Source of the DNA: Schizochytrium sp. TIO01
Lineage: Eukaryota; Protista; Bigyra: Labyrinthulomycetes
Assembly (NCBI GenBank): GCA_004764695.1
Contig: SMSO01000031.1
Coordinates: forward strand, 1,154,436-1,218,435
Direction: 5' to 3'
DNA length: 64,000 nt
The notes beneath the pieces were generated by a model that worked only from the letters and a program-made list of their open reading frames with translations, ran no database searches and was not told the origin of the DNA. Both the position numbers and the translations under genes were made by a program. Position 1 is the first letter of the stretch. Each line of letters opens with the position of its first letter. This document shows positions 6,231 to 59,232 of the stretch, in pieces.

Positions 6231-6879
6231 ACCTCCTTATATATATATGTATTCTTTTTTTTTAATTCATTACTTTTAATTTCCATTCAAAGTAGCTTTC
6301 ATAGTGATTATTGTAGCACTCTCTACAGGCAAGAAAGAGGCGCCTAGGGATGACTCGGAGATTGTCAACTTACTGCTCGAGATGAGATGAAATGACGATG
6401 CGATTATAGAAAGAAGACGCGTGGAGTTAGGCAGGCAAGGTGTAGATGGGACGAAGTTTGAGACAGAGAAACTGCCTTTATTAGGTTTTCCTTTATCATC
6501 TTTGCTTGATTTCTTTTCTTTTTTAATAATGAAGAATTGCTCACCTTCACTTATTTATAAGGGTCGGAGATGTGGACTCATGAAGAGATATGGACTGTTG
6601 TACAGCCGTAGGACTTCAAAACTACTTCCTGCTTTCATGAAAGGGCTCTTGTAGAGGTCGGTGCTGAATAGAAATTCACCATTTCTGAATAAACAAGAAA
6701 ACCTAAAGTTCAATGAGTGATTTTCTGACTTATTCTTGGCCATTGTATTTTGTGCCAGCATCTTCCCAGCATTTAATATCGTGTCCATCTTTTCATAAGC
6801 CCCCCCCCATCAACCTTGGCTGTATGCGTACAAATGACAAGCCGTGCGGGTTTAGGAATTATGGGAGTGGATACACGTT

Positions 6880-7700
6880 ATCTCCCCACTTTCTCAAAAT
6901 CTTCTCTTGATGAATTGCCCGTGCTCGCTGTTTCGCGATCTTGCCAGAGTTGGTTTCTCTCACCTACGAGGCACAATAATTCGTCAAAATGCGCCATCAA
7001 CTCTTCTAAACTGTCTGTGCGATTTGGTATTCACTCACTCGCCCTGAGTGGTTATCAGGTACCCAGTTTTGTAACCAGCTCTGTCTCTAGAGCTATAATC
7101 ATACACCCATCGCTTGCGAAAGTCCATCTAATTTGCCAAGTTTTTCTGCCTAAAGCCTGCAATGCCAGCGCCCTCATCGATCTACTCCATCCCAGAAGTA
7201 AAAGGCGCAAGCTCTTGATGCTGTTCCAAAGAGAGCCACGAAAGCTCCTCAAAAAGCCTCGAGCTCTCGACTTGGCACTTTCATCGATCGAAGCCACGGC
7301 ATCTTTCTTCTTGAAGAGCCAAGAATTGCACTACATAATTAAGGATTTGAGTGTGTGCAGATTCAATGGCGGTGTAAGTGTGCACTGGGCTCCAACCATG
7401 ATGGTCGTGTGCAAATTGCTTACGTGTCTCAAGACCTCGAAGACGTTCATTCGATTGATTGATCTCCAGCAGCGACCTCAGTTCAGCTGCAGGGCCTTCG
7501 AGCTGCGCCTTGTCCAGCTGAGTTCACGGAGCGCGAAGGAACTCCAAAACCCCTCTCTTCGATTCTTCTTCTGTGATGTGCATACCTCCTTATTATTTTG
7601 CTGCTGCTTAAAGGCGCCTTCTTCACGGCTGTGTCAACCGTGCCAAGATGGTGGCCCTTGCCGATTGCCAGCAGAGCAGGCTGTCCACGCTTGGTAATTC
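6880..7700 (-). pseudogene. Degenerate coding remnant with ankyrin-like motifs
   Basis: Manual minus-strand translation gives protein-like text broken by several stops, including DHHGWSPVHTYTAIESAHTQILNYVVQF and, in another frame, GQPALLAIGKGH. Both resemble the ankyrin consensus. Confidence 0.35.
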
Positions 7701-11515: not shown

Positions 11516-13962
11516 ATGGCGAGCAGGGATCTGGAGGACAAAATCAGGCGCGCTCTGGCCTTTGATGACTCTTCTGATGAGGATAACGACAACCATAACG
11601 ACGACAGGAGTTACGAAGAAGACGACGACGACCAGGTGGGGAAGGACGAGGAGGGGGAAGATGACGAGGAAGAAGAGGATGCAGAGGAAGATGACGAGTT
11701 GAAGAATTTCTGGCTGAATCAAAACCAAGCGTGGAGGATGGGTTTGAAATAACTCTGAAATCTGGACATCAGGATGAAGAATACAGTGAAGATGAGGACC
11801 ATGACACTCAGGATGCATATAGCGCTCGGTCAATAGACCAAGATGGCAATGAGGATGCAGACCTAAGTCAGGGAGAGTCGAATGAAGATGGCAACGAGCT
11901 TGCAGCTCCAAATATATCGCCGCAAGATCCGTACAGAAATGACGAAGCTGAAGATTATGACGATTACCACAATAAACACATAAATAATGACGAAGGAAGC
12001 AACGAGGAAGAGGAGGACAAAGACTACCAACGGAAGAAAAATAGAGATGAAAATAACAGGAGGAGCTACCATGGGTTCCACCAGCAAAGTATATTCTCAC
12101 CTGAGCCCTTGAGCGCTGGAGAAAGTCTTATTGACGAAGAACAGCTGCCTCATAACAAACCCAAGGTGTACCTAGAGCCTCTAAAAGTAAGCCCAATGAC
12201 CGATGATGATTCTGATAATCAAAGTTACTCAAGTAGTATGATGGATGGTGCAAGTTCCTATGCTTACACACGAGAAGGAAATCAGCAGAAACTTTACGAA
12301 TCAAGATCCCTTTATGAGAAGCGTGCCCCAAGCTTTGAGACACGCAAACAATTCGAAAAACTTACTGCATCGCCTCGAGCAAGTCCGCAAGCCCCACCGG
12401 TAAGGCCTTTCTCTCCAAAGTATGCAGGAATTAAAGCGCCTTGGAGCCCCCGGTCTATTCAGTCGTCAATGGCACACTCTACGGCACATTCACAAGGGAG
12501 CAATGTCAACAGCAGTGGTGGCGGGTCCCCGGCAGGAAGTGCTCTTCGAAAAGCAGTTGCAGAACTTCGACAAGTGAAAATGGAACGTGACCAGCTGCGC
12601 CAAGCTCTGCAAGCATCCAATCCACAAACCATTGTGGAGCAAACAAAGACGCAGATGGATCGTGAATTCAGGCTCGTGATTAGAGCCATGATGGATGAGA
12701 AGGCGCGAGCTTTGCGCGCGGCGAACTCCAAAACAGATTTTATGCGAGAGCAATTAGAGACAGAACGCAACCGAACTGGTATGGCCCTTGCAGACATCGA
12801 ATCATTAGTATTCCAGCGACGTCCCGATGTACCAAGAACCTCTGCAACAATTCCTCGTCACCAGACGGTCCCAGTGCAAATCAAGTCTGGCCTAGGACCA
12901 CAGATGCGTTTTCGGCGCCCGCGAATGGAGGTCAAAGCGCCAACGCACGAACGTTTTGTTTTCGCTAGTAGTGATGATGATGAAGAGAACGAAGAGGATA
13001 TTATTAGCCGGGGAGTTGCAGTCGTAAGAGCAGCAAATAGTGCTCCTTTTGTTAGAAATAGTCGCAGTAGTGCTCGTAAGACTCGATTGCCTCAACCTGA
13101 GGTACCTCGCTTAGGAGCCTCACGGCCCAGCACCTCTACACCAGCTGCAGAGATGCTAGACACAAAGCCACAATCCGGTGCGCTCCCGCCGCCGCCACCA
13201 CCACAAGCAACTCTCGTTTCACAAACTAATTCAAGCAAAAACTCTCGGCGACAACTTTCTGTAGAACAGCACCGCCTCAGGCGGCCTAGCGCTCCCGCCG
13301 TTTTGTCTCTGTCAAATTTAACATTTTCATCGTCGAGATCATTAGTACCCACTTCACCCGGGTCAACATCGAAGGAAGACCTGCGAGATGAAAACAATGG
13401 CTCTGTGAGTGCCGCCCTCTGTGACTCTGCAGCGAACAAAACCGGGATTACTTCTCCGAGATCTGGCTCGGCACGGTCTGCAACTCCAGGTTCTCCATTG
13501 AGCAGTGATAACAATGCCGATGGGCGGCAAACAATTCCCAAATGCCAGCGGCCAGCAGAAGTTATATATGCATCACTGCTACAGGCACAACCTGGCAAAG
13601 GTACGAACGTTCAGGTTGGGCGCGTGCGTACATTTTTGAAGCAGTCTGAATTGCTGCCCCCAACCATCCAGCCAGCTGATCTTGATGTGTTGTTGGTCAA
13701 ACATTCGAAGCGAAGTTCAGTGATGACCTTGCCTCAATTTCAAGATCTTCTTGCTGATGTAGCTTTGGCTCTTATGAAGTGCGGTATAATCGCGGTTGAT
13801 GAACAGGAAAAAACACAAGAAACTAATGGCGAGCTTTGGGAATGGGGCGTCCGTGAGCCACGCACAAAAATCTCCAGAGGTGTGGCACTTCGAGCTTTAG
13901 GCAATGTCCTCTTTCCGAATGATGTGAATGATGTCACCTCGGAAGACAATTCTTTGCTGTAG
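11516..13962 (+). CDS. Acidic/coiled-coil, largely disordered protein with a possible C-terminal p25-alpha (TPPP)-like domain; frameshift near 11700
   Basis: The ATG 11516 frame (MASRDLEDKIRRALAFDD, acidic) joins the 743-aa frame (EEFLAESKPSVEDGFEITLK) if one base is added near 11700. There is a central heptad-like region. Confidence 0.7.
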
Positions 13963-18037: not shown

Positions 18038-20355
18038 TATTTGTTCGCCAACCGCAGGTCTTCGCAAATTAATACCCTCAACAATCTCAGCCCTCAAGTA
18101 ATACAGCACACGTCTCTTGGAGCGGCCTATATAAAAGAGAATGTCTTCTTATGCTCCTAATTGACGTTAACAAGTCAAGTTCACCAAGGCGGCCTCTCTT
18201 TGTTTAGACGAGGCAAGCGAGTGAGCAAGCTAGCAGGCGAGTATTTAAGCAAGTAGTTTGTCACCAATTGGAATCACCTTGGTCAATCTCTGCCTCACGC
18301 AGAACTCGTACCAACCTCAGGCACGCCGGGCAGACGAACTCGAAGAAACGCCTTGCACCAGGAACTCCGTGTTTCCTATGTCCCCTGGCCCGAGCCACGT
18401 GCCTAAGACGCCTTGACTCCACCGCGCAGGTTGAGGTTCTGTGCGCCTCGATAAGGTAGTACAGTCGTCAAAGAACCTGGTAGAAGCTGCTAAGAGTGGC
18501 TTAGAGTGTCGTCGCGCTGTTGTTGTTGTTACAACTTCGACGTCACCGAAAAACCTGCTCTTCAATAAGAGTCAGAAAAGTGAGGAAAACTAAAATGCTG
18601 CAATACCACAACACCTAACACTCTTGCGGTAGCTCTTGCTGTGTCCAGTGCTGACGAGGACGATGATGCCAGAGAACTGATCGCGCTGCTCAGTCTCCTG
18701 GCACCTGAAATACCTGAGGTTCTGGGCGGAAGTTCAGACCACCTTGCTTCGGAGTTCAAGCCGAGCTGAAGATTTGCAAATTTCTGCTTCTCGTCAAAGC
18801 AGCGAGCGAAGACCTTTATAGCAAGCTGTCCAGCCGAAGCAAGAGCCTGAAGCTGCTCTCTGGTTCCCACTGGATTACACTAGGCTTGAATTTAATTGAA
18901 ATGACCACTGCCAGAACAAGAATGACATGTACATATTACATATACCCCGGATCCTGCACGATTCGAAGGGTAAAGCCAACGAGTCGGGATGGACTTAATT
19001 TCCCGTGGCGTTTCCTTTAATGTCCATGTATTGCAACGCATCGAAACACCGGATGGTTGATCGGCCTGAGTGCTTATTCCCTTCAGGTTTTCAAGAAGCT
19101 TCAAGTTGCGCTTAGCTTCATAAGGATTGGCAAGGCGAAAAGCAGCGTCTTGAATGTCATCGTAAACATCGCATTACACTGCACTGGAGGCTGGAGAAAG
19201 AGTCATCGCTGTGCTATATAGTTCACCAAGAAAACCAGTACCAGGGAAATCACTTGACCGCTTATTACCTTTCTCAAGATGGACATGCATGGGACCCGCA
19301 CATTCTAGAGAAGGAAAAAGCAGGAAAAGGGAAAACACACTAAAGCAAAACATAGAACGAAAAAACTTAAGTACCCCTTCGAGTTTTTTTAAAGTTTATT
19401 TCTACCTACCTGCCTCCCTTAACTAGGCAGTAGAACCTATTTCTCTTCAAAGTTTAAAATAAATTAACATTATAAAATAAATAAAGAGGTCATTATAAAA
19501 ACTGCTAGGCAGTAGTAGTACCCATTTAAGGTTGTTTTTTTAATATAAAACTAACTTTAAAAACTTTGAAAGGTAATAAAGAAAATTGCAAATGGCCTCC
19601 ATCTTGGTTTCAGGCGCGTAATTACGCGAAGCGTTAGGAAGACTCTACTGCAGATACTCTCGGTCTGGTAAGTAAGCAGAAGTGATCATGGATCCTCTTG
19701 CTTCATTTGTTTCGTGATCAAAGCAAGCTTTGTGAATACAGACTTATGAAGCAGAAATGCACTGTGAGGGAAAGCTAAAGGTTTGATCTTCGTGGCTGTG
19801 GAGGTGAGACACTCATAGGCAGTATCATAGGCTAGTGCCTACTGGAGATCTGTATATAATTGAAATTGTGTGACTGTTTGATTCACTTGTCCATGAATAG
19901 CTAGGCACTGAGATTCATTTAACGGATCTCTAGCACAGTCGTGCTTGGTAAACGAAGCCCGCGCCAAATCGTAGCTTAGTGGTGTAAAGAAGCGCTAAGA
20001 GTTCTTTAGCAAATCATTCTCGCATAGACTCCTCACAATATAGATTGCACACACACATGAATATACGAGATGGAACATGTCCGCGCTAAACTTCGGGAGA
20101 AGGTCGTGGAGCAGGACTTAGCGAGCCTTGCCAAGCGCGGATTTGCAAACCAAATACTTTAATTACCTAAAGATGTCTTGGCGGCGCTTCATAACCATTC
20201 AGCATAAGTAATTAGTTGTATTGTTAGGGCGCAAGAAACGAACCCGGTTTCTGCTCTAAAAGTTTTAGCAACAAATCAGCAATCAGAAAAGATCACCGTG
20301 CTACTCGAACAAGGTGATCTTTTCTTGTCGTCGTCTTTCTTTTGTAAAAGATAAG

Positions 20356-21936
20356 ATGCGTTCAAGCAGCAATATGTCGTGGGTTGGCGTATCGTTTACC
20401 CTCTTTGCACTACTCCCGACGTTATCACAGGGCCGCTCTTGCTTTACTGGCGCGATGCGAGTACATATGGCTGATAAGTCTCTTAAAGCGATTAAAGATA
20501 TAAAACCAGGAGATCGTGTGCTGTCGTATGATCTTGAGCTAGAAGAAGTTGTGGAGGCCAACGTGATAGATCTAATCGCATCTGAAGCCAACGAGCTAAT
20601 GAAACTAGAAATGGAGACAGGTTCTTTCATCTGGTCAACCCCAGACCATCCCTATTATAGTTTTGAGAGCAAACAAGTCATTTCACTTCGACCAGATACT
20701 ACTGCATCAGCCTATCGTATGGAGGCTGTGCAAATGCGGCAGGAAAACGAGTCTCTCATGTCTGAAACAGGAAGCCTTGTCTTGGCTAACGTCACTGATC
20801 TAGTTCACATGCCTGATGCAGTTCCCACATATACATTACGCCTTGAACCAACGCATTGGTTCTTCGTTGAAGGTGTTCTTGTTCATAACAAAGGTTCCTC
20901 TGGAGGATTTTCAAGCGGCTCTTCTTCTCTTTCAGGCAGCTCGTCGTCTTCGAGGACATATTACACATCCTCCGGTGGCGGATCATACTATATTTCATCG
21001 AGTGGTTATTACGTTTCTAATTCTGGATATTCTTGGGCAACACTTGTGTATTTCAGGTCGTCTTACTACTCTCGAAGCTCGCGCTGCTCAAGCTACCCGA
21101 CTGACCCTGGCTGCCAACAAGGAACACAAGAAAACCTTATTTGCGGCTGCTCTGAAGGATTAGTTGTGGGAAACTCAGATAGCTTGGAGTTAGAAAGCTC
21201 GGCTGTAACAACCGCGACAGTGCAGACAGTGTATGGCTATGATCCATGCCCTGCAGACGCTAATGTTGGAGTCTGTATAAGCGAAGATTGGACTGGTTAC
21301 TGCGTCCCAGTAGGCCAGAATTTTACACGGGACGATGGTGGATGGGCTCATGTACAATACTATATTGACAATAACTGTCTCTCTGAGTATATGATTTGTG
21401 AGGAGGATGATGATTGCGTGCCTTATTTGAGCAACTCTACGAACGAAGCAAATTACTACCTTGAGACAGTGCTTGGGGCTCCAGCAAATTATTCTGCATT
21501 TCAAACCTGCATGAACACTAATTTGGAATGGTGTCCTTGCGAATGGGAGGTTTGTGACACTAGTGGAGGTATTTCATTTATTATGATAGCTGGAATTGTT
21601 CTCTTCGGGATTTGCTTCATCGCATTCCCTTGTATTGTCAAAATGTTTTGTGCCTGTGCAAGGCGCAGATTTGGTAAGAGCTCTAGGATTGTCCCAGTCT
21701 CGCAAAGGGCCCGACAGGTTATAGACTGCTTTGGAAACCGCTCACATACATATGAGCTCCAGACGCCGCAACAAATGGCTGACCGTCGAAACGACCAAGA
21801 ATACCTGAAGGGATACTATTGCGATCGTTGTGACGCTTTCCACGCCCCCCCTGCAGCAATGTATCATTGCAATATTTGCCTATTAGATTACTGTGCAAAG
21901 TGCTCGCAACAACGTGGTGAACAGCCACAGAAATAA
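20356..21936 (+). CDS. Type I membrane protein: signal peptide + intein-like Hint domain + G/S/Y segment + Cys-rich ectodomain + TM + zinc finger
   Basis: Hydrophobic leader, CFTGAMRVHMAD...IKDIKPGDRVLSYD, STPDHPYY, TYTLRLEPTHWFFVEGVLVHN, TM ISFIMIAGIVLFGICFIAFPCIV followed by RRR, and C-terminal CDRC...YHCNICLLDYCAKC. Start is ATG 20356 or 20374. Confidence 0.9.
   Translation: MRSSSNMSWVGVSFTLFALLPTLSQGRSCFTGAMRVHMADKSLKAIKDIKPGDRVLSYDLELEEVVEANVIDLIASEANELMKLEMETGSFIWSTPDHPYYSFESKQVISLRPDTTASAYRMEAVQMRQENESLMSETGSLVLANVTDLVHMPDAVPTYTLRLEPTHWFFVEGVLVHNKGSSGGFSSGSSSLSGSSSSSRTYYTSSGGGSYYISSSGYYVSNSGYSWATLVYFRSSYYSRSSRCSSYPTDPGCQQGTQENLICGCSEGLVVGNSDSLELESSAVTTATVQTVYGYDPCPADANVGVCISEDWTGYCVPVGQNFTRDDGGWAHVQYYIDNNCLSEYMICEEDDDCVPYLSNSTNEANYYLETVLGAPANYSAFQTCMNTNLEWCPCEWEVCDTSGGISFIMIAGIVLFGICFIAFPCIVKMFCACARRRFGKSSRIVPVSQRARQVIDCFGNRSHTYELQTPQQMADRRNDQEYLKGYYCDRCDAFHAPPAAMYHCNICLLDYCAKCSQQRGEQPQK
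20440..20889 (+). other. Hint (Hedgehog/intein) auto-processing domain, 150 aa, without a homing endonuclease
   Basis: Block A Cys1 (CF), block B TxxH (TPDH), blocks F/G ending in His-Asn; the +1 residue is Lys. Confidence 0.92.
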
Positions 21937-22552
21937 TCTGCTTCAACTTCAATCCTCTTCGATCATTGAATGTACATACAACCTGCCTCCTCACTACTGC
22001 TTATAATATTATACTATGTAAAGTAAACAATCATACTGTCCTTACAGTCTATGAAATCTATTGAAAGCCTTTTTTAACATGCTAATTCGAATTTCAGATT
22101 TTCCCTAAATTATCGTTTGTAGAACAGTTCTTTTTACCCACCAACCGCCGTCTGCCAACTCTATTGCTAATGATCAAATATATTAAACCTTAGTAGTAGC
22201 TTTGGTAAATTAGATTGATATGGAGAACATCAAAAGTTGGTATAACAGTCGCTGCCCATCCATCGCGCGATCCCCAATCCTTAAACCTGCGCACTTCGTT
22301 GACTCGCCGAAAGCATCGGTGACGTGACGATCTGATCGGATAGCTTTGATACTTTGTCGTCGAGCCCAGGCTTAGCTACACAGGGTTGTGTTGTCCGAGC
22401 GCAGCCCACGCGTTGTTGCCATCAGCATCGCCGTTTTACCCATTGTCGCTGGTGGCTTTGTCAGCCTTTGTTCTAAAGCCTTTTCGTTTGTATTTGTGCA
22501 AACCGAATAACAGATTGCAGTTGAAGGGTGAGGCTTGCAAGCGAATTTTACC

Positions 22553-24284
22553 ATGCCCCGCGAAATCATCACGCTTCAGGTGGGCCAGTGCGGTAACCAG
22601 AGTAAGTTGGATTTTTCCCTTATGCAACTTTCAAAGCTGACATTCGGACGCAGAATGTAAACAAGATCTTATAATCTATTTGTGCAGAAAGCTGTTCCAT
22701 TTGTAGGGAGCTGTTAGCCACGGTCTTGAAATTATGTAGACTAACTTTACTTGTCGTTGTCTAAATTGGTTTGCTGAAAATACAGTTGCGAGTGAATTCT
22801 GGAAACAAATTACTGCTGAGCATGGCATTTCCCCTGATGGTGTCTTGCAGCCGTATGCTATGAACGGCACAGACCGGAAGGATGTCTTCTTTTACCAGGC
22901 TGATGACGACCACTATGTTCCTCGTAACTTGATGATGGATCTGGAGCCCCGTGTGGTTGCAGGTATCTTGAGCAGCAGGTAAGTAGCACATGGCGATTTC
23001 CAGGCTTTGAGTGCAAAGAAAACAATAATTAACTTGAACAACTTGGGCCTAACTTTAAAATTATGCAATTGAAACAGCTACCGCAACCTTTACAATCGTG
23101 AGAATTGCTTCATGGGTGGCGGTGAATCTGCTGGTGGCGGTGCCGGAAACAACTGGGCATCTGGTTTCGCTCAGGGTGAGCAACTTCACGAAGAGCTTAT
23201 GGATATGATTGATCGTGAGGCAGACAACAGTGAAAGTTTGGAGGGTTTTGTGCTGTGCCACTCCATTGCCGGTGGTACCGGTTCTGGCATGGGTTCCTAC
23301 CTTTTGGAGAGACTGAATGACCACTTTCCGAAAAAGCTTATCCAAACTTACTCTGTTTTCCCCAATCAGTCCCAGGAAGGGTCATCTGGTGTTGGTACCA
23401 GTGATGTTGTTGTTCAGCCATACAACTCTCTTCTATCTCTTAAGCGCTTGGCTCTTAACGCAGACTGCGTTGTTGTGCTTGATAACACCGCATTGAACCG
23501 AATTGCCACTGAGCGGCTCAATATCACGAACCCAAGCGTATCTCAGCTTAACTCTCTTGTCAGTACAGTCATGGCTGCTAGTACCACAACCTTGCGGTAC
23601 CCGGGTTACATGAACAATGATTTGATTGGTCTTGTAGCCTCTCTTATCCCGACTCCGCGCTGCCACTTCCTTATGTGCGGTTACACCCCACTCACCTTAC
23701 AGTCCCAAACCAGCTCGGTTCGGAAGACTTCTGTGCTTGATGTCATGCGCCGTCTTTTGCAGCCTAAGAATTCGATGGTTTCAACATCCACACGCCGCGG
23801 ATGCTATATTTCCATCCTTAATATTATTCAGGGTGAGATTGATGACCCAAGCCAGGTGCACAAATCGCTTCAACGTATCCGTGAGCGTAAACTTGTAAAC
23901 TTCATCCCATGGGGCCCAGCTTCGATCCAGGTTGCTCTCTCGCGTAAGTCACCTTACGTCGAATCCCAAAATAAGGTTTCTGGTATGATGTTGGCCAACC
24001 ATACTTGCATGAAAGAACTTTTTCGCCGCGCAATTCGCTCCTACGATCGCCTGCGTAAGCGCAATGCTTTCTTGGAGAACTACCGTCAACAACCCATGTT
24101 TTCTGACAGTCTCGAAGAGTTTGACAGCGCCCGTGAGATCGTTTCAAGCCTTGCTGAAGAGTACCACGCAAGTGAGTCCCCGGATTACGTAAACTGGGGT
24201 CAGGACCCAATTGCTCAAGCTCATGGCCTTTCTGGCCCGCAAGAAAACGAAACAACAAGTCCAGGACTGGTTGGCGCCCTTTAA
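22553..24284 (+). CDS. TUBG1: Gamma-tubulin; exons 22553-22601, 22786-22978, 23078-24284
   Basis: [66 protein letters not shown]. Two GTAAGT...CTAAC...CAG introns keep the frame. Confidence 0.97.
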
Positions 24285-30600: not shown

Positions 30601-31819
30601 GTTTATCAATGACTGTTTGAGAAGAAAGAAAGTGCACTATATAACTAATATAAACTGTACTCATCGTCTGCAAAAACTGACTAGTGAAAAATGTTGAAAG
30701 CCAGGACCCGAAACACCAAATTTTTATGAGACAAACTAAGTTTGATTGAAAACAAAGCCAACCAACCGACAGCAAAGACAAAAGCTACCAAGGAAGCTTA
30801 TCAGGAGGTCATTCGGCCCAAACCTTGAGCAAGCTCTCGCCAGACGATTCTTGTTGGGGCTTCGAGGTCGCATCGCACCCCAATTGCCGATTTATGATAA
30901 TTAGTTATTTAAAGTTATTTATTTATTCAAAGTTTTTTAATTTCAAGTTATTTACTATTTTGCGTTATGAAAAAGTAAATGAAACCATAGGCCCTTACAA
31001 TACCAACACAAAAACAGCAGCGAAGAGACTACCTTTGATTCGCAGCAAACGAATAGAATTGAATGAGCGAATTGAGGCGTGGAGGAACCCGCTAGGTAGT
31101 ATTCCTTCTCCATCTTTCATGAAGAGACCATAAGCAAAACCATCTCGATAACCACCATCAGGTAAGGATGCTGATCTGAAATGCGTAGGTACCTGCATTC
31201 ACGTGTGCCTAATAAGAACAGAACAACTTCTTCCGCAAATCGTTCAAGTTTCGACAGTTTATCCTCAGGTACAGTAATAGGTATTTGTAGAACCTAGCAC
31301 AGCAGAGACTTGGATCATAGTGTTCATTTCATTTTCAACAGCCACAACTTAAGAAAGGTGCCGCATTTCCTCTCTCCATGGCCACAGCACAAATGCGCAG
31401 GTGATCAGGCGTCCACAGAGAAAGGCGAACTCAGGAAACTGAAACCCAATTGAAGCATCGGTAAACAGCACGAGAAGCGGAGCCATGACAGCCTCTTGAA
31501 GTTTCAAGTTTCAACAAACCTTGTTTGTTTACAGGAAAAGGAATTTGCCTCGCTAGGCGGCTAATAGTAAATAGTACTAGTGTTTCTTTTGTTAAAGTTA
31601 AAAAAATATATATATAATTCTAAATTTGTAGCTTTAAAAAAAGTATGGTTATTGAAATTATACGGATAAAGTGAATTTAAAAAATTGTTATTTTGTTTTG
31701 ATCATGATCATGATAAACAACTTCTAAAAAAGAAATGAATTGAAAAACAATCAAAGCGAGAAAGAAATCCCACGCGACGGCACTCTGAATAGACAATCCT
31801 TCAACCGCTGCGGCCCAGC

Positions 31820-34800
31820 ATGGCGGAGCCTTCCGGCGGCTCGAGCTCCTCGCCCCTGGCACCCCCAGCCTCCATGGCTGCTGCTGGCCCCTCCAGCTCC
31901 ACTCCGCAGGGCTCGTTCGTGCTCGAAGCGAACCCAATTAACAGTGGCAACAGCAACAGCAACAGCACTAACGCTAACTCCGCAAGCTCCGGCAACAGCA
32001 TAAGTAGTGGATCTAATTTGCACATGCACCATCATCATCATCACATGCACCACCATAATATTGCCCAAAGCGGCGTTTCTGCCCGTTCGCAGGGCAGAAG
32101 CATCCCAGTACGGGCTATTCACCATCTTCACAGCACCCTCGAAGACGATACTTCCTCCTCGCAAATCCACGCCTCGAATCCCAATTTTGCAGCTCCAAAT
32201 TCAACCCACAACTCCGCTCCAAATCTTGCTGGGAATTCCCCAAACCCCTCAGCAATATCACCGACACCAAGTTTTCAGTATTACACAAACTCCACATCAT
32301 CTTCATCGACGTCTGCACTGCAAAACTTCTCAGCTTCATCTCAGGCCGCTTCATCCTTGAACAATCCATCTTCCGGACACTTGCCTGGCTCCACAAGCAC
32401 AACAAATTTTGCCAACAACACAGGCAATGCCGGGGTTTCAGGCGCTACCATTGTCAGTTCGCCAGCGACGAATGTGAACAATACTGGGGTTCCAACGATG
32501 GCGTCGACGACAATGACACCGAATGCGGCGATGCTGCCGGTTCCGCCCTCAACTGCATCATTACCATTGTCGTCCTCATCTTCATCTTCGTTCTCTTCTG
32601 CCGCTGCCGCTGCTGCTGCTACTGCTGCTGCTGCCGCTGCTGCTGCAAATGTTTCAGGTGCTGGTCGTCGAAGCGGTAATCCTTCGCCCGTGGCAGGCCG
32701 CAAGTCACCCCGAGGATCGCCGCGAACGTCGCCGATGCCGCGAACCTCCCCAGCGCACGGGAGGTCTGCCTCTCCTCTGTACGTGAGCAGAACTTCGCCG
32801 AGGGCCTCGCCCGTGACTGCCACGGCTTGGAGTGGTCTGACTAGCTCCGGCGCTTCTCGCAATAAAAGCCCCCATCATCACGTCAGTGGAAATAGCAATG
32901 GCAGTGGAGGCAGTAGCAGCAACAACAGTAAGTCTGCGTTTAACAAGGTCAAACCTAAAAGAGGTCAGGCAATCACTCCGCAAGGCAACGCGGAACTGCA
33001 ACAAATCCTGCAATCTCCGGATTCCAGCGCCTTCTCGGTGCCACAGGCACGAACAATCTCGGCGTCAACGGGGACGCCGACCGCCTCGAGAAGGTCCTCA
33101 AGCAGGAGCCCTGTATTAGTCTCTGGCGCGGCTCGCTCGAGGCTCTCACCAAGTAACAAGGCTTTCGGCACGTCTGTTTCGGCCTCTGCAGCAGCTGCTA
33201 CTGCGACTTTGGCAAACTCTTCTTCTTCTTCTTCTTCTTCTTCTTCTTCTTCTTCTTCTTCTACAACACCGACACCAACTTCAATTTCAACCTCACAGGG
33301 CAAAATCTCTGCAAGAGCTCTGTCGCAGGCGCCCCCATCTCCTTCGGTTTTGAGCACGTCGAGCGTCGTCTCTGCAAAGCCGAGCTACCAGCGGCAGGAT
33401 CCCACAAGTCGAGACCTCGAGTTTCTTCTGCGAGGCCGTGACGGTGAAGGGCGTGCGGACGCAGCGCCAGTCGATGATCCCGGCTTCGGTAGCGACAATG
33501 AGCTTATGATGTATTCATCAACAAGCTTTGACGAGCACGGGCACAGACGAAGACCCTCGAGTTCTGGGTCGACAGAACCACCTGCAGTTTTTGCAACATA
33601 TCAAGATCAGATGGGAAGTCAACGTGGTATGCATACCTCGGGAAGACCTAAGTCGTGTACGGGGTCCTTTTCGCGTCGCATGGCGTCTCCAACTTTTGAG
33701 GCTGCAGACAGAGCGAGATTGCATCAACTGCAGCACGCAGACAGTATTAACAGCATCAACAGCGCAAATATCAATAACAACCAGGTGCAAGATTATTTTA
33801 CGCAACAGCCGCATGGTACCACTACAGCAGAAACAAAGTATGCTGAACTCTCATCTTCATCTTCATCATTGTCATCATCGGCGTCCATATCCTCTTCGAC
33901 AGCACCAAGCCCTGCAAACTTTGATCAACTACCTCTACCTATTCAGGGATCCCAACAAATTGCAACTCAAGGACAGGCACAACATCGCGGACGTGGTCAG
34001 CTCAGTATGCACCCGCGCATGCGCTCCAATTCGCTGGACTCACCGCTCCGTGCAAAAACTGGACGTGGGAAAATAAACGCAAGTCAGAGCCAAAATCAAA
34101 ACATGGGTTGGACAGCGAATGCCCAGCAGCAGCTGCAACAGGCATCAGCACGCCGCCAGCAAATCAAGCTCAATCAACAGCATGCGCTTCAAATGCAGCT
34201 GCTCGAACATCAGCATAATCATCAAATGCAGCAACGTCAGATTATGCAGCAAGAGTCAGGTGGTGGGGACCAAATGCTGATGGGTTCAGCAATACCCCCC
34301 ACCAGCACAGCTAATGAGTCCCTGCGGTCCGGGCCATTTGCTGACGTAGATGAACTTACACTGGAGGAGATTTTTGAGTACGAACGTCGTCTTCACTCTC
34401 GTAAAGCACAACTCCTTCGGGAACGCGTTTTTGCTTCCCAACCTCAGGGATCTACATCACAGCACGGATCTGATCTGGTTCATGTTGACCCAGGCATGTT
34501 GCAACGTACCCGGGAGTACGGAAGTATGTCCTCTCAAGAGTTTGAAGCCCTTATGGAAATGGATTACCTTGCGGATCAAGCTCTTGGAGGCCATCCATCT
34601 ACTCTCCATGCTCGTGATCGCTCCAATAGTGGAAATTGTATTCTTGACGACATTGATGACGCATATATTGCAGGCCCTATGGATTTCGACGATGGGGAGA
34701 TGTATGCTGACATCCCGGACGGAGCTCGTGCTCCTAATGTAAAGATGTTTCGTTCATGTGATCGGAACGCCTCTGGGTATATCTCACCAGGTTCAATGGG

Positions 34801-35236
34801 CTCCGCAACCACACCGGTATCGGTCGAACTCGAAGGAGATACAGTTGAAGAATTACGTAACAAGATTAGCGAGGGGTTTAGCAAGAATCTTAGTCGTTCT
34901 CCAGGCAACATTTCCTTTGTTAGCCGCTTAGCTGTCAAACTCGACTCCCGCCCTACTGTAGCAAGACTCAAATCACCTTCATCGAGTCAAGTGGAAGCTA
35001 TGCGTCACCCTATCGAGACCAACACATTGTCACCCGAGCGTTCTAAAATAATTGGCAGCCTTCGCAGTCCACGTTCTGCCTTCAGTCGTGCTCAGAAGAA
35101 CGAAGGCGTCATCGCGGGGTTTGGAAGTGTCTCATCTGTTTCCTCATCCTCTTCATCGAGGTTGTCTGCATCTCAGCCCCAACAGTCTGCTCAGCGTAAA
35201 GTTTTACGCACGCAGCGGAGCACAGGCGTACAATAA
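31820..35236 (+). CDS. Large low-complexity (Ser/Ala/Gln/His-rich) intrinsically disordered protein of unknown function
   Basis: 1138-codon ORF with poly-H, poly-A, poly-S and Q-rich tracts and many SP/RxxS motifs; no folded domain recognised. Confidence 0.78.
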   Translation: MAEPSGGSSSSPLAPPASMAAAGPSSSTPQGSFVLEANPINSGNSNSNSTNANSASSGNSISSGSNLHMHHHHHHMHHHNIAQSGVSARSQGRSIPVRAIHHLHSTLEDDTSSSQIHASNPNFAAPNSTHNSAPNLAGNSPNPSAISPTPSFQYYTNSTSSSSTSALQNFSASSQAASSLNNPSSGHLPGSTSTTNFANNTGNAGVSGATIVSSPATNVNNTGVPTMASTTMTPNAAMLPVPPSTASLPLSSSSSSSFSSAAAAAAATAAAAAAAANVSGAGRRSGNPSPVAGRKSPRGSPRTSPMPRTSPAHGRSASPLYVSRTSPRASPVTATAWSGLTSSGASRNKSPHHHVSGNSNGSGGSSSNNSKSAFNKVKPKRGQAITPQGNAELQQILQSPDSSAFSVPQARTISASTGTPTASRRSSSRSPVLVSGAARSRLSPSNKAFGTSVSASAAAATATLANSSSSSSSSSSSSSSSTTPTPTSISTSQGKISARALSQAPPSPSVLSTSSVVSAKPSYQRQDPTSRDLEFLLRGRDGEGRADAAPVDDPGFGSDNELMMYSSTSFDEHGHRRRPSSSGSTEPPAVFATYQDQMGSQRGMHTSGRPKSCTGSFSRRMASPTFEAADRARLHQLQHADSINSINSANINNNQVQDYFTQQPHGTTTAETKYAELSSSSSSLSSSASISSSTAPSPANFDQLPLPIQGSQQIATQGQAQHRGRGQLSMHPRMRSNSLDSPLRAKTGRGKINASQSQNQNMGWTANAQQQLQQASARRQQIKLNQQHALQMQLLEHQHNHQMQQRQIMQQESGGGDQMLMGSAIPPTSTANESLRSGPFADVDELTLEEIFEYERRLHSRKAQLLRERVFASQPQGSTSQHGSDLVHVDPGMLQRTREYGSMSSQEFEALMEMDYLADQALGGHPSTLHARDRSNSGNCILDDIDDAYIAGPMDFDDGEMYADIPDGARAPNVKMFRSCDRNASGYISPGSMGSATTPVSVELEGDTVEELRNKISEGFSKNLSRSPGNISFVSRLAVKLDSRPTVARLKSPSSSQVEAMRHPIETNTLSPERSKIIGSLRSPRSAFSRAQKNEGVIAGFGSVSSVSSSSSSRLSASQPQQSAQRKVLRTQRSTGVQ

Positions 35237-35828
35237 ATTAAATATTCAACTAGGACTACACAATTAACAATTCCAAATATGTAAAAATCTTCATACCACT
35301 GCTTACCTACCACTCTGTCGTAAATAGTCACTAGTAAAATATCGCTCACACAATGTTCCAAAGCTGCATGTTTCTACATTATAAATGATGACCTGAATTT
35401 CTGCTTCAATTCCGTGCTGCTGTGTAGTACTAGTCACTGCTATCTAACTCCTATGCACATATAGGTCATAGACTGCATCCTTTAGATTGCTTATTATTCT
35501 GTCCCTTCTATCGACTTGAAGGCCCCAAACCATTTCATGGGAGAAGCAAAAAGCTCGTTCAACTGGTGTAGAAAGAGCCAAGGACTACGCTAAACTAGAC
35601 TTTCAGATCCCACTTCAGCAAGCAAAAGATCGGGAAAGGTGGTCTTTTACCATTGTTCACGTGAGCCCAACTGTCTGATTGCAGACTCGTTTCACCATCG
35701 TGTTCTCCTTTCCCATCTGGCTTGAACTGATTTTTACGAACACCTCTCCCCTTTGTGTGTTTTCTTTAGTTGGTCGAAGCCGGACAAAGAAAGCTGTGTC
35801 TTTCACGTTCTCGACCACCTCAGGTCCT

Positions 35829-38204
35829 ATGTGTCGTTTGTGCTGCATCCTGGCAGCGTTGTTGTTACTGATTTCAACAAGTGTAGCTGCAACATCCCAG
35901 AACGGAGCCCAAGAAGTTGTGGGCCCCTTGACTAGTGTCGACGATGTCAAAATGCAGCAAATTAAAGCGTTGCAAGCAGCAGCAAATCTTAATCTTAAAC
36001 GCACAAAATTTCACCTTGAACTCGTGAGTCCGTCTTCAGGCTCACAGAATGTCAGGAGTGAGTTATCTGAGGTGGTTTTCGCATTTTCCAACGTTTCCAT
36101 AGCTGAAGGAGCACCAACACCAGAGAACCCAATACTCATGAACTATATAGTAGAGCAAGCACGATTTTTTGCAGAGCAAAGTGAAAATGCTGGCCAGAAA
36201 ACCAATTTTACAGACGGGAACGCAAGCCCCAGCACTAATTTTACAAAAGCTACGTTTGCATACAAAAAGAATATGTGGCTTAAACTTGATGAAGTCAAAG
36301 ACGGGGGCAAGCTAGGTCTAGTTACACAGCACAGTCTAAAACTAGAAAATCTTTGGTTTTCTATGGAAAAGGAACTTTTCAAGATTCACATTGCTTTTAA
36401 TTTAACAAAGGGGCTCAAATATGATCACACGTATAAATTGGAGCTTTCCGACGCTGCTTTTCAGGGACTAAATAGGCCTGATTTAAGACTTAGTGACTGG
36501 CGCTTTTCCACTGAAACCAAACCAGACGATCCTGGGGCGAACACGAATGTTGAAGTTTCCCGAGTCCAAGTATATGGGATAGGAGTGTTTATGCTTGATG
36601 TTGGAGGCGTGGATCTTCGCAAGGGCCTCTTCAATGCAGATCTACAACTCTTTCTCCTCAAGTATTACCTTGACTTTGACAATGTCGAGACAGCTCGACG
36701 CGAGGCGATGTATGCTAACCGTACATGCAAGGATGCGCAACATGGCGAGAGATTCCAGTATTTACATGACGAATCTTCTGATTCACTCTTATCCAAATTT
36801 AATTTTATTAACACTGCAACAAAGACAGTACCGGAGCTAGTATTTGCTCATGAGGGCCTCGAAGCTTTCGACCACTATCGAGTGCGGTCCTCATGGACAT
36901 TTAGTCCCAAGGTGGCAAACTATCCTTTCCAGGACCAAGACATGGTGATTCAGCTCGAAATCGCTGGTCAGTCTGTTACGCGTGAGCCCACTGCTGTTCT
37001 TTGTGTTCTAGAAACATTTTCTGGCTTTGCACAGAATCTGTCATCACTAAGTCTTGTTGAAGCTGACACAAGGATTGGCCACGCTACATATACGAGCAGC
37101 TTTACAGTTTCAGAGCAGCGCCGCTGGCCACCTCTGTCTGGAAATTTCAAACCTCCTTATCGGTTTCCCCACGATGCAAACGTTGCACGTCAACCGATGC
37201 GTGGTTCTTCTCGGCTTCATTGGATCATAAGTCTGCACAGGCCACCCATCATCGGGGCGTTGGAGTTAGCCCCAGCACTCTTTGTCGCTGCGTCTGCGCT
37301 CGTTTCTTATTTCCTGCCAGTCTCCGAATTACGTTCACGTCTTACCACCTGCACAACTTCTTTGTTGGCTGCCGTGGTTCAGCACTCTTCTTTACGAAGC
37401 CGCATTCCAGAAAGAGCAGCTGTCACCAATGCTGACTTGGCAATGCTGGTAGTGTACACTCTGATTTTACTGTCTGTCGTGTCGACAGTTATTGTTCTTG
37501 TTGCAATTCATCATCGCCGGTGGTCCATATTTGCTGAGAGGATCAATACGATGTTGCGTACATTTGGCATCATGTCACCCCTCCTGTTCTTAGTTTTCCC
37601 ACTTGGTGGTAGTCGTGACGTGTCAACGTGGTTTGCTACGCTATTTTCAATCGCTCTTGGCACATACTTTCTTCATGCATGCATATGGGGTGGGGCAAAT
37701 AATTCGCTTCTCATCCGTGATGGAATTTCTTCATGTAATGTCTGGCTACGTCGGCTTTGCCGCCGATCTCCAAATGTTGATTACAACTACGCCCCTTTGA
37801 ATGTGCTCAAGAACATGGAGGTTAATATGTGGACAGCGACGGAGGTAGCAATATGGATCGAAACGTTGATTTTGCCAAGCTCTACGGAGGCAGATAGAAA
37901 ACGCTATGCCGACGCATTTTTTGCCGAACGGATAGATGGCCCTGTTTTACACCGTCTTGATCTGAGTGCTGTAAGAAGTTTGCGAATTCCTTTAGGTCAT
38001 AGTATGCGTATTCATGATGCAATTGCAGATTTAATGAGAGAGCAACAGAATCACGCATCTCAATCTGTGACTACTAGTATTGACGAAGATGATATAGATG
38101 CCGAGGACACCGAAGAAGATCAATTGGTAGAGATCCGTAATTTGCAAGCACGCTCGCGTGAAAGAAACAACTCCTCTAACGGAGTTGAAATGATCATTAG
38201 ATAA
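35829..38204 (+). CDS. Cys-less (Pro-loop) pentameric ligand-gated ion channel-like protein with an N-terminal Ig-like domain and a C-terminal SAM domain
   Basis: Signal peptide; beta1-2 GIGVFMLDVGGVDLRKGLFNADLQL; Pro-loop YRVRSSWTFSPKVANYPFQDQDMVIQLE; pre-M1 ISLHR; M1 proline; M2 RLTTCTTSLLAAVVQH; M2-M3 IPERAAVTNAD; SAM WTATEVAIWI...YADAFFAERIDGPVL...IPLGHSMRI. Confidence 0.85.
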   Translation: MCRLCCILAALLLLISTSVAATSQNGAQEVVGPLTSVDDVKMQQIKALQAAANLNLKRTKFHLELVSPSSGSQNVRSELSEVVFAFSNVSIAEGAPTPENPILMNYIVEQARFFAEQSENAGQKTNFTDGNASPSTNFTKATFAYKKNMWLKLDEVKDGGKLGLVTQHSLKLENLWFSMEKELFKIHIAFNLTKGLKYDHTYKLELSDAAFQGLNRPDLRLSDWRFSTETKPDDPGANTNVEVSRVQVYGIGVFMLDVGGVDLRKGLFNADLQLFLLKYYLDFDNVETARREAMYANRTCKDAQHGERFQYLHDESSDSLLSKFNFINTATKTVPELVFAHEGLEAFDHYRVRSSWTFSPKVANYPFQDQDMVIQLEIAGQSVTREPTAVLCVLETFSGFAQNLSSLSLVEADTRIGHATYTSSFTVSEQRRWPPLSGNFKPPYRFPHDANVARQPMRGSSRLHWIISLHRPPIIGALELAPALFVAASALVSYFLPVSELRSRLTTCTTSLLAAVVQHSSLRSRIPERAAVTNADLAMLVVYTLILLSVVSTVIVLVAIHHRRWSIFAERINTMLRTFGIMSPLLFLVFPLGGSRDVSTWFATLFSIALGTYFLHACIWGGANNSLLIRDGISSCNVWLRRLCRRSPNVDYNYAPLNVLKNMEVNMWTATEVAIWIETLILPSSTEADRKRYADAFFAERIDGPVLHRLDLSAVRSLRIPLGHSMRIHDAIADLMREQQNHASQSVTTSIDEDDIDAEDTEEDQLVEIRNLQARSRERNNSSNGVEMIIR

Positions 38205-55859: not shown

Positions 55860-57515
55860 TCTACGCAGTTTCTGCAAAACCCTTATTCTTCCTGCGATCT
55901 AGGAGCTACTAATTTGCTTTGCGTGAGTTTTCAATTCAGGGCAACAGCAGAATGACTTATTTCTCCTTTTACTTCGGAAATCTTTTTTGCAGTGTGTTTT
56001 TCTACACCTCCGCACGCGTCGCGACAAGCCAAGCTTTACACAAACTTTGTCGGGCTCAACGTTACCTGCCTAGGTATCAGCCAGTATCTAATGTCGCAGC
56101 AAGTCAACAATCTTACTCTCACACACCTCACGATACGAACCTAAAGACAGTCAGGAAGCCACAGCGTCTCCACCCTGACACAGCAAACCGCCCGGTCTTT
56201 TGGCTCTCGTAGGTTGGTTTGAGTTTGCAGATATGGTTTTGCCGCTTCTTAGCTTTTGGATCCTAATAGCCACGCGTGCTGTCTGGCTTCTTCCCGTTGC
56301 TCAGGTCCTGGTCCCTCAAATGAAGTCGAGACTAGCTCTTTCGACTCCTTGAAACTCCAGTAAGCTCAGACGCACTCACAACCAGGCCGCCCTCGTCTAC
56401 GTATGCTGGCCAGGTGACACCTAAGCTACTCTCCGTTTTGCTGCTGGTGGCGTTGCGAGGGCTTGAAGCGACGTAAGCTTTGGAGTTTGTCCAAATTTCG
56501 ATGAACTGATTTTACTGTGATATGTCTGTTTGTTGGTTTTCAAGATTCAGGTGATGGAATGAATCCGTGGCGCGGTTCTATGCGGCCGCCAGATAGACAG
56601 AAACGGGTTTGCCCCAGTCCGGCTCGCTGGTTGGATTGGTACCGTCTGCGAGCTCGTTTGTTGGTCTGGCTGGTTGCCCAGTAGGTTGGTTTCTTCGTGT
56701 GTTTGTTGTTTATTTTTTGTTTGTCTGTCTGGGTTTGCTGTTCGCATTTGAGAACTCTTCGGAAAGAATTTGAGACATAAAAGCGTCGCCAAAAACTTTA
56801 ACTTTCTACGTAGAGTAGGCAAGTACTACTACTTTTTCTGTTCATCATAAATAACGAATGGTTAAAACACATTTTAACACGCTATCTCCTCCTTTGCAAA
56901 CTGCCTTTTCGCAGATTTTATTATTGATTGATTGATTGATATCATAAAATTTACATAATTAATTAAAAAAAGCAAAAAGAAGAGAAGTGAACAGTTCACT
57001 ACGAAGTAATAGAAAATATAACTAAAAATCAATCAATCTAAGCAGAAACAACGAAAGAACTTAAAAGAAACTCTCAAGAAAATTTCAAACTCCATCCAAG
57101 CTCAGATATGACATGATCGATTGATCGATTGACGCAAAGGAGCATTTCTTCGCCAAGCCCCCCGCTTCGATCGAGGCGCGGGCCCAGCGGCACCCTCGCA
57201 GCAGGCTCGAGGCGCCCGGCTGTGCTCCGCGGGTCTCGAGCTCGAGGGCTCCGCAGCGCTGGCCGATGGAGCAGGCTTGCTTTCTTCGAGGGACTTACTT
57301 ACTCCGAAGACTTTGGCCCGTCGAACGCCGAACGAGGCGGACCCGGGCAATCTGCGGCACGAGTTTTTGCCCGCCCAGGCCCAGTCAGCTGGAAGAGGCA
57401 GCGGACCACGCCACGCCACGCCACGCCTCGCCGTCCGACCTGAGGCCGCCGCTCGGCTGCGGAATCCGTGAAGATCCCGTTGAAGCCATAATATCATTCG
57501 ATGTTTCGAGAGATC

Positions 57516-58605
<1,090 letters not shown>

Positions 58606-59200
58606 AATTTTGGATTGAGAAGGAAAGTAACGTAGCGTGTCATAGTAGTGTTTACTTAGGAGCGCTTCATTCATTTAATTTAATGTAGAACAACAGTTAA
58701 TAATGGTGATGATGATAATGATAAGGAGAAGAAGAAGAGAACTTCTTTATTCCTTTTGATCCTTCGAATTCTCTGCCTATGGCAATGAGAGAACACAGAC
58801 AGGCGGAAGGATGCGGCTTCAGGGTTTCCTGGAAACTCGAGATTTGCGAGTCGACCGCCAAAGAAAAGGCCCGTCGCCGAGAAGGGCAGGTCCAAGGTCT
58901 CAAGATTCGAAATGTGGGTGCAAGAAACTAACTGGTGATGTGATAAGTCAGTACTCTGCCACTCCCCGTTTTGTAATGAACACAGCTGCCATTTCATTTG
59001 TGGCTTACTTTGCTTCAAGTTCTGCTTTTTTCTTTCTTCTCGCTTTCCTTTCATTTGTTTTACTTCTTCTACAATTAATTTTATTCTAAAATTAATGTTA
59101 ACTTAACTTTAAAACTAAAACATAATATCTCAAACTCTGTTACGGCGACCAACACTTCACTGTACTACGGCCCGTGTAATGTTTAGGATAGTACACCCCC

Positions 59201-59201
59201 A

Positions 59202-59231
<30 letters not shown>
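59201..59231. repeat. (AAAG)n microsatellite
   Basis: Directly visible. Confidence 0.85.

Positions 59232-59232
<1 letters not shown>

What the first reader, a model, noticed from the sequence alone, without database searches (positions are those of the whole stretch)
20356..21936. Candidate self-processing cell-surface receptor: signal peptide-Hint-ectodomain-TM-zinc finger
Seen: a hydrophobic leader is followed, only two residues (RS) past a plausible SQG cleavage site, by a complete 150-aa Hint domain with Cys1, TPDH and terminal His-Asn. Then come a G/S/Y tract, a Cys-rich ectodomain with N-glycosylation sequons (NFT, NST, NYS), one TM helix with an RRR stop-transfer, and a cytoplasmic Cys/His finger. 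Established: Hedgehog-type Hint domains lie C-terminal to their payload and cleave at their own N-terminus, whereas the HN end is typical of inteins, bacterial intein-like domains and pretoxin-Hint domains, which release what follows by Asn cyclisation. Inference: here the Hint acts as an N-terminal auto-cleaving pro-domain on a eukaryotic type I membrane protein and unmasks a new N-terminus, conceptually like GAIN/SEA autoproteolysis but using intein chemistry. I do not know of a described system with this architecture.
Basis: partly seen in the sequence, partly recalled or inferred. Interest (0 to 1): 0.88.

Follow-up and report, generated by a model that had tools for sequence, protein, structure and literature searches.

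The report
Self-removing intein-like cap, protist membrane proteins
A eukaryotic gene, likely from a marine protist, encodes a predicted cell-surface membrane protein that opens with an intact intein-like domain followed by a lysine unchanged in every eukaryotic relative found, so the domain likely cuts itself out and likely uses that lysine to cap the protein's new end, a reaction we did not find described for eukaryotic surface proteins.

Summary
ORF 20356-21936 encodes a predicted signal peptide, a 2-residue stub (RS), a 150-aa Hint (Cys29, T95xxH98, His177-Asn178), a G/S/Y tract, a 14-Cys ectodomain, one TM helix and a C1-like finger. Its modelled fold is closest to Tetrahymena BIL2 (TM 0.88). 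RNA-like runs cover it unspliced.

It is not a one-off. Relatives occur in Hondaea, Parmales and dinoflagellates, with 1-4 tandem Hints and different payloads; their Hints form one clade. Lys-Gly follows 57 of 57 eukaryotic Hints, 197 of 197 in bacterial Tim44-like proteins and 33 of 33 in phage tail-tip J, against 0 of 25 control Hints. Some relatives end at that Lys. So Lys+1 likely belongs to the chemistry, not the payload.

Best reading (0.45): self-excision resolved by the Lys179 side-chain amine, leaving the stub isopeptide-linked. No activity was tested.

This scan noted the Gly-Hint-Lys module before on other DNA (bacterial Tim44-like and phage tail proteins). The eukaryotic membrane-protein clade was not among those notes or in 10 paper searches. 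Verdict: new variant of A-type BIL-like Hints; interest 0.72.

The parts
20356..21936 (+). Single-exon ORF, 526 aa (P0001), including stop codon
   Evidence: covered without a joint by contigs of RNA-like runs
20356..20433 (+). Predicted signal peptide, residues 1-26 (Met7 is an alternative start)
   Evidence: hydropathy; -3/-1 rule (inference); same leader|RS-C in P0128 and P0134
20434..20439 (+). Two-residue N-stub Arg27-Ser28 (would-be N-extein)
   Evidence: sequence; stubs in relatives are RS, KG, KGG, or end in AG/SG
20440..20889 (+). Hint domain, Cys29-Asn178, A-type-BIL-like, with block B T95xxH98 and terminal His-Asn
20890..20895 (+). Lys179-Gly180, the invariant +1/+2 dipeptide
   Evidence: 57 of 57 eukaryotic Hints, 197 of 197 Tim44-type, 33 of 33 tail-tip J; 0 of 25 controls
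20890..21084 (+). Gly/Ser/Tyr-rich low-complexity tract, residues 179-243
   Evidence: sequence; present after the last Hint in most relatives
21085..21555 (+). Cys-rich ectodomain, residues 244-400; 14 Cys, three sequons; no Pfam family
   Evidence: conserved in P0084, P0086, P0087
21577..21639 (+). Predicted transmembrane helix, residues 408-428, followed by a Cys-rich stretch and RRR
21727..21903 (+). Cytoplasmic C1/ZZ-like Cys/His finger, residues 458-516
   Evidence: transitive hits; shared with Hint-less P0093

Best explanation
The gene encodes a predicted type I membrane protein whose N-terminal BIL-like Hint domain likely cuts itself out in the secretory pathway, with the side-chain amine of Lys179 likely acting as the +1 nucleophile. 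Inferred steps: signal peptidase leaves Arg27-Ser28; Cys29 with T95/H98 converts the Ser28-Cys29 bond to a thioester; the Lys179 epsilon-amine attacks it and forms a branched isopeptide intermediate; Asn178 cyclises and frees the Hint. The mature surface protein would start at Lys179 with a free alpha-amine and the RS stub on its side chain. In relatives with tandem Hints the same steps would chain the short KG(n) linkers into an epsilon-linked, positively charged cap. Shown here: the domain, its fold, its catalytic residues, the unspliced message, the family and the invariance of Lys+1. Not shown: any cleavage or ligation, or the role of the mature protein.
For: Lys+1 behaves like the +1 Cys/Ser/Thr of inteins. 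KG follows 57 of 57 distinct eukaryotic Hints with a readable end, 197 of 197 HN-ended Hints in 80 Tim44-type loci picked by Tim44 patterns, and 33 of 33 Hints in tail-tip J loci fetched with the non-Hint part. No Arg swap occurs in these three sets. Controls: Lys in 4 of 25 and KG in 0 of 25 other HN-ended Hints. The host does not need the Lys: 11 of 36 non-redundant Hint-less J alleles have no KG in the tract. It is kept at internal junctions of arrays whose Hints are mostly 25-39% identical within one protein. It is kept where nothing follows: 18 proteins end His-Asn-Lys-stop, and 24 of 29 Hints with tails of 15 residues or fewer have Lys+1. Cys1 is present in 49 of 49 eukaryotic Hints with a readable start; block B His is invariant in 115 aligned Hints. 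Cys29 is the only Cys in the Hint and the ectodomain has an even 14, so Cys29 can stay free. The nearest solved fold, BIL2, is reported to splice through a Lys epsilon-amine isopeptide (PMC8616854 section 2.4, passages).
Against: No activity data. BIL domains are reported to give mostly cleaved products (PMC7664689, passages). Cys1 is also kept in most control Hints that lack Lys+1, so it does not single out ligation. Arg, which cannot be the nucleophile, stands at +1 in 13 of 62 internal or long-tailed Hints among other prokaryotic and viral hits; the three such Hints placed on the tree form one subclade. Counts are not independent: Hint-bearing J alleles form only 2 clades, most Lys-stop proteins are one family, and a Hint-independent re-fetch of that family gave only 1 new complete case among 6 loci. 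Searches used words or patterns containing KG, so their Lys share is inflated. A two-residue stub has no obvious use once attached. The geometry of Lys179 in the model could not be inspected.
Confidence: 0.45

Rival explanations
1. Cleavage only. The Hint is a self-removing pro-domain: Asn178 cyclisation releases a protein with a free Lys-Gly N-terminus like the one signal peptidase leaves on Hint-less relatives, and the thioester, if formed, is hydrolysed. Lys+1 helps catalysis or is needed at the mature end.
For: A-type BILs are reported to cleave at His-Asn and mostly not to ligate (PMC7765530 and PMC7664689, passages). The Hint is flanked by like motifs: RGGGG^KG in Tim44-type proteins, KG^KG in several eukaryotic members. 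15 of 17 Hint-less Tim44 homologues shown start with a similar Arg-Gly motif after the leader. Hint-bearing J alleles carry one KG unit more than Hint-less ones, so cleavage alone would regenerate the tract. Arg+1 cases exist.
Against: Does not explain Lys as the last residue, Lys at every internal junction of old arrays, the absence of Arg in 287 Hints of three families, or repeated tandem expansion when one Hint would suffice.
Confidence: 0.33
2. Linear splicing by aminolysis. After Asn cyclisation the freed alpha-amine of Lys179 attacks the thioester and gives an ordinary peptide bond (RS-KGSS...), so the domain works as a mini-intein that restores a Gly-rich tail.
For: A-type BILs are said to splice by an alternative route in some cases (PMC5874633, passages). 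In J proteins the Hint sits at one fixed site, 46 of 80 loci lack it, and the leader upstream is conserved in both kinds.
Against: Alpha-amine attack does not by itself require a Lys side chain (inference), yet Lys is invariant. No Hint-less orthologue of this ectodomain was found.
Confidence: 0.12
3. The Hint is inactive in the oxidising, glycosylating ER and stays as a structural or binding domain, or is a tolerated passenger with no role.
For: Two N-glycosylation sequons lie inside this Hint. The annotated Hondaea orthologue starts inside the Hint, so its Cys1 cannot be seen.
Against: All catalytic positions are kept across stramenopile and dinoflagellate members at 31-40% Hint identity. 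All 5 other full ectodomain relatives found carry Hints (P0084, P0086, P0087, P0106, L003).
Confidence: 0.1

Closest known systems
A-type bacterial intein-like (BIL) domains, e.g. C. thermocellum BIL (PDB 2lwy); Pfam PT-HINT PF07591
   Same: Mini-Hint without endonuclease, Cys1, block B TxxH, terminal His-Asn, no Cys/Ser/Thr at +1.
   Different: Eukaryotic, at the N-terminus of a predicted secreted membrane protein, often in tandem, with invariant Lys-Gly at +1/+2 where control Hints vary.
BIL2 of the Tetrahymena thermophila BUBL1 polyubiquitin-like locus (PDB 6tmm, 6y75)
   Same: Closest solved sequence (E 1e-8) and fold (TM 0.88); eukaryotic; reported Lys-isopeptide splicing (PMC8616854).
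   Different: BIL2 lies between ubiquitin-like domains; here the flanks are a dipeptide and a Gly/Ser tract on a predicted surface protein. The +1 residue of BIL2 was not checked here.
Hedgehog/Hog and Vint proteins of protists (Burglin 2008, PMC2362128)
   Same: Eukaryotic Hint proteins, some with signal peptides.
   Different: In the sections read Hog and Vint domains lie C-terminal to the payload; none has a Hint right after the leader followed by a TM payload.
Class 1 mini-inteins
   Same: Blocks A, B, G intact; in phage J relatives the element is present or absent at one fixed site.
   Different: Lys replaces the +1 Cys/Ser/Thr; sites are flexible Gly-rich ends rather than conserved catalytic cores.
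GAIN and SEA autoproteolytic domains (recalled, not from a call)
   Same: Self-processing ectodomain of a membrane protein.
   Different: Different fold and chemistry; here the cutting domain would leave entirely.

Membership tests
A-type BIL | Hint fold without endonuclease insertion | tested here: met
   150 aa; model pLDDT 95.9; TM 0.80 to 2lwy, 0.88 to BIL2
A-type BIL | Cys1, block B Thr/His, terminal His-Asn | tested here: met
   C29, T95, H98, H177, N178
A-type BIL | No Cys/Ser/Thr at +1 | tested here: met
   Lys179
A-type BIL | Variable flanks in hypervariable regions of bacterial proteins (PMC7765530) | tested here: not met
   eukaryotic host; KG invariant in 57 of 57 against 0 of 25 controls
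A-type BIL | Autocleavage at the termini | not testable with these tools
   needs expression and mutants
Class 1 intein | Cys/Ser/Thr nucleophile at +1 | tested here: not met
   Lys179
Class 1 intein | Element-free alleles of the same host protein | tested here: inconclusive
   none found for this ectodomain; present for phage J relatives, 46 of 80 loci
Hedgehog/Hog | Hint C-terminal to the secreted payload, followed by a sterol-recognition region | tested here: not met
   Hint is N-terminal, ends His-Asn, and is followed by a G/S tract; Hog structures rank lower, TM 0.65-0.66
Vint | VWA domain upstream of the Hint, no signal peptide | tested here: not met
   no VWA hit; leader present
BUBL | Ubiquitin-like domains flanking the BIL | tested here: not met
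   no such Pfam hit
Polymorphic toxin with PT-HINT | Toxin domain after the Hint and an adjacent immunity gene | tested here: not met
   payload is ectodomain, TM helix and finger; neighbours are gamma-tubulin, an alpha/beta hydrolase and a UBX protein
GAIN/SEA | GAIN or SEA fold | tested here: not met
   listed fold hits are all Hint-fold proteins

The most novel reading that the evidence does not exclude
Lys+1 Hints are a distinct class of self-splicing domain that uses a lysine side chain as the +1 nucleophile. One lineage entered stramenopile and alveolate protists once and was then duplicated in tandem again and again on unrelated surface proteins, where each array writes an epsilon-linked (Lys-Gly)n branched peptide cap onto the protein's N-terminus without ATP or any separate enzyme.
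Probability: 0.3. Interest if true: 0.92.

Novelty: new variant of a known kind. Interest (0 to 1): 0.72.

Why it matters
BIL domains are described as lacking a +1 nucleophile and mostly cleaving. A class with an invariant Lys there, in bacteria, phages and protists, would add a way to finish protein splicing and give stable isopeptide links with no enzyme or ATP, of use for protein ligation. For protists it adds a self-processing surface-protein family beyond Hog, Vint and BUBL. This single-Hint, intron-free member is a simple test case: Lys179Arg, Cys29Ala and Asn178Ala plus mass spectrometry would separate the three mechanisms.

Tried and rejected
Single-sequence AlphaFold2 of the whole protein failed (pLDDT 34.7) and was not used; the ectodomain has no model. 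No whole genome is held for the window, so paralogues could not be counted. The word-indexed search with residues 236-526 found nothing (0 of 571 candidates); the HMMER search of representatives found the family. The Atlas gave no usable hit for the whole protein and only leads under 0.9 for residues 8-215. The run search listed no holder on record as RNA; expression rests on the spliced neighbour. No DNA-run check of genomic contiguity was obtained; it rests on the window and on one contig spanning 19488-22601. Direct transfer from the bacterial Tim44-type Hints was considered and is not supported: the eukaryotic clade sits among other prokaryotic and viral Lys+1 Hints, with weak deep support and midpoint rooting, so no donor is named. 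An mRNA intron removing the Hint: rejected. Strain differences in the ORF were 6 silent and 3 replacement changes, only 1 (silent) in the Hint; too few to test selection. Four Tim44-type ORFs first scored as Hint-less have Hints in another frame upstream. Supplements of a thraustochytrid proteome paper (PMC12221091, 4 files) held none of five Hint terms; this says nothing about the protein. PMC1779556 passages do not mention Hint domains in tail genes.

Full report
OBSERVATION. The ORF at 20356-21936 is 526 aa. It reads: leader (1-26), Arg27-Ser28, Hint (Cys29-Asn178), Lys179-Gly180 and a G/S/Y tract, a 14-Cys ectodomain (244-400), one TM helix (408-428), RRR, and a Cys/His finger (458-516). 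Pfam finds Hint (E 1.7e-9) and PT-HINT (E 9.3e-9) above cut-off. A model of residues 27-182 built on 115 related Hints has pLDDT 95.9 and matches Tetrahymena BIL2 best (E 1e-13, TM 0.88), then C. thermocellum BIL (TM 0.80); Hedgehog structures rank lower. The finger has no Pfam hit itself but matches C1_2/ZZ proteins. The signal peptide and TM helix are hydropathy calls, not SignalP or DeepTMHMM.

SETTING AND EXPRESSION. Neighbours are ordinary eukaryotic genes: gamma-tubulin, a thioredoxin-like/UBX protein, an alpha/beta hydrolase, SET/PHD, a sulfate permease. The closest named relative is from Hondaea fermentalgiana (42% identity), so a thraustochytrid-like host is inferred. Four runs from four studies, guessed by the tool to be RNA, skip two GT-AG introns of gamma-tubulin. 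X4 (20079-22044), X12 (20208-21985) and X1 (19488-22601) each hold one contig across the whole ORF without a joint; X20 covers 20537-22067 in two pieces. X4, X12 and X20 have no cover over 18500-19906, as expected of RNA; X1 also holds intronic pieces and may contain DNA.

EUKARYOTIC FAMILY. Searching with the non-Hint part (residues 235-526) against 1.84 billion representatives gave 11 hits. The 3 that match the whole ectodomain carry 1, 2 and 3 Hints. The other 8 match only the TM helix, the finger or a C-terminal fragment. One of these, P0093, is Hint-less with a leader, a KG/Gly tract, a different Cys ectodomain and the same TM-finger tail (probability 97.6). A metagenome scan with patterns that do not contain KG gave 12 loci, all with eukaryote-clade Hints. 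A profile search added members named as Biecheleria cincta (4 Hints), Tripos fusus, Prorocentrum cordatum (2 genes) and a Parmales alga. Of 40 proteins scored as eukaryote-type (many near-duplicates or fragments), 14 have one Hint, 15 two, 9 three and 2 four. Among distinct Hints, 57 of 57 with a readable end are His-Asn|Lys-Gly and 49 of 49 with a readable start begin with Cys. Payloads differ between groups. The 35 eukaryote-type Hints put on a tree with 81 others form one clade (SH-like 0.98). The set was defined by a profile score, so this is partly by construction, but every member with an organism name is a stramenopile or dinoflagellate. Tandem copies group by lineage, which suggests repeated duplication. 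No Hint-less orthologue of this ectodomain was found.

THE SAME MODULE ELSEWHERE. The first search returned 82 hits, matched through the Hint region; 78 of 82 carry a Tim44-like domain. They read leader-R(A/G)GGG-[Hint-KG(G)n]-G/S tract-TM-Tim44. A genome scan with Tim44 patterns found 271 loci and kept the best 80. In their ORFs 198 Hints were detected with a model lacking KG; 197 end His-Asn and all 197 continue Lys-Gly. Hints within one bacterial Tim44-type protein are mostly 25-39% identical (one pair 55%) and group by position across phyla. LemA lies upstream in 46 of 80 loci and a DUF350-like gene in 14. In 301 genomes searched with the Tim44 part alone, the 13 close-type loci examined had Hints in frame (11), in another frame (1) or were cut (1). 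The 17 distant homologues examined were Hint-less, and 15 of them start with a similar Arg-Gly motif after the leader. In phage central tail fiber J, 80 of 160 loci fetched with the post-Hint part were kept: 33 have a Hint at one fixed site in the N-terminal Gly/Lys tract, all 33 followed by KG (29 His-Asn, 4 Ser-Asn), 46 lack it and 1 is cut. Non-redundantly, 26 of 26 Hint-bearing alleles have KG while 11 of 36 Hint-less alleles have no KG in the tract; the Hint-bearing alleles form 2 clades, so they are not independent. As control, 28 other Hints from the best 27 non-family Planctomycetota loci were read: 25 end His-Asn, 4 have Lys+1 and none has KG.

MECHANISM. Lys+1 is kept at internal junctions, where hosts can do without it, and where it is the last residue: 18 proteins end His-Asn-Lys-stop, mostly one family. 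That points to a role in the Hint reaction itself. No Arg appears in 287 Hints of the three families, which favours amine chemistry over mere charge. The nearest solved relative is reported to form a Lys isopeptide (PMC8616854). I therefore rank epsilon-amine resolution first (0.45). Against it: BILs are reported to cleave mostly (PMC7664689, PMC7765530); Arg+1 occurs in 13 of 62 internal or long-tailed Hints among other hits, though those placed on the tree form one subclade; cleavage alone would regenerate a basic-Gly N-terminus; two searches were biased toward KG; and a Hint-independent re-fetch of the Lys-stop family gave only 1 new complete case among 6 loci. Cleavage only (0.33), linear aminolysis (0.12) and inactivity (0.10) remain. 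Under the first three the Hint leaves and the membrane protein begins at or next to Lys179. What the mature protein does is untested; ectodomain, TM helix and C1-like finger suggest sensing or adhesion (inference).

COMPARISON WITH THE KNOWN. It works like an A-type BIL and meets the motif tests, but fails the 'variable flank, bacterial host' feature. It is not a class 1 intein, Hog, Vint, BUBL or polymorphic toxin by the tests listed. Papers seen: PMC2362128 (abstract, sections 9 and 12); PMC8616854, PMC7664689, PMC7765530, PMC3417536, PMC1779556, PMC5874633 (passages); PMC12221091 (supplement search only). Amitai 2003, Dassa 2004, Aranko 2013 and Chiarini 2021 were not read and are known only through those passages. 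Ten full-text searches listed no paper on a Lys+1 Hint class or on leader-Hint-TM proteins of protists; one search showed only 40 of 482 papers, and the library lacks most subscription journals, where the original BIL work appeared.

EARLIER NOTES OF THIS SCAN. A sequence look-up found nothing. Word look-ups found unchecked AI notes on the Tim44-type cassette and on Gly-Hint-Lys modules of phage tail proteins in other genomes. I saw them after reaching the same pattern; they are not independent support. None shown concerns eukaryotic membrane proteins.

VERDICT. Real feature; new variant of a known kind; interest 0.72. The eukaryotic clade and the invariant Lys are shown; the chemistry is inferred and directly testable.

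Noticed in passing
window 22555-24284 (+): Gamma-tubulin-like gene with two GT-AG introns (22602-22785 and about 22976-23074) that are skipped in all four runs laid.
   Followed up: partly
window 21968: All four runs carry an 11-base insertion just downstream of the stop codon relative to the window.
   Followed up: no
L013-L092: Bacterial LemA - DUF350-like - (Hint)1-4-Tim44 gene cluster in Desulfobacterota, Planctomycetota, Verrucomicrobiota and others.
   Followed up: yes
L205-L284; L159:179-1417: Phage central tail fiber J with an optional Hint in its N-terminal Gly/Lys tract, and a tail assembly protein with a C-terminal Hint-KG.
   Followed up: yes
L163:1579-3849; P0114-P0121: Family of unknown function with 2-3 C-terminal tandem Hints ending His-Asn-Lys-stop; the first Hint often has Arg at +1.
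   Followed up: partly
P0179, P0181, P0190, P0192: Large surface-type proteins, two named from Bacteroidota, ending in a Hint with a Lys-led tail of 5-12 residues.
   Followed up: no
L149:1366-2226: Planctomycetota lipoprotein-like leader followed directly by a Hint with Lys+1 but not Gly+2.
   Followed up: no
L004:1-2400: High-GC eukaryotic locus with several Hints spread over frames, probably interrupted by introns; copy number not resolved.
   Followed up: no
window 11695-13962 (+), 31793-35236 (+), 6777-7697 (+): Three long open frames (755, 1147, 306 aa) with no Pfam hit at E 0.1.
   Followed up: no
window 35679-38204 (+): Open frame with weak hits to a neurotransmitter-gated ion-channel TM region and a SAM domain, both just under cut-off.
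   Followed up: no
window 56001-60000: Low-GC stretch (33-38% against about 46% elsewhere) with three overlapping long open frames at 57125-58635, possibly a repeat.
   Followed up: no
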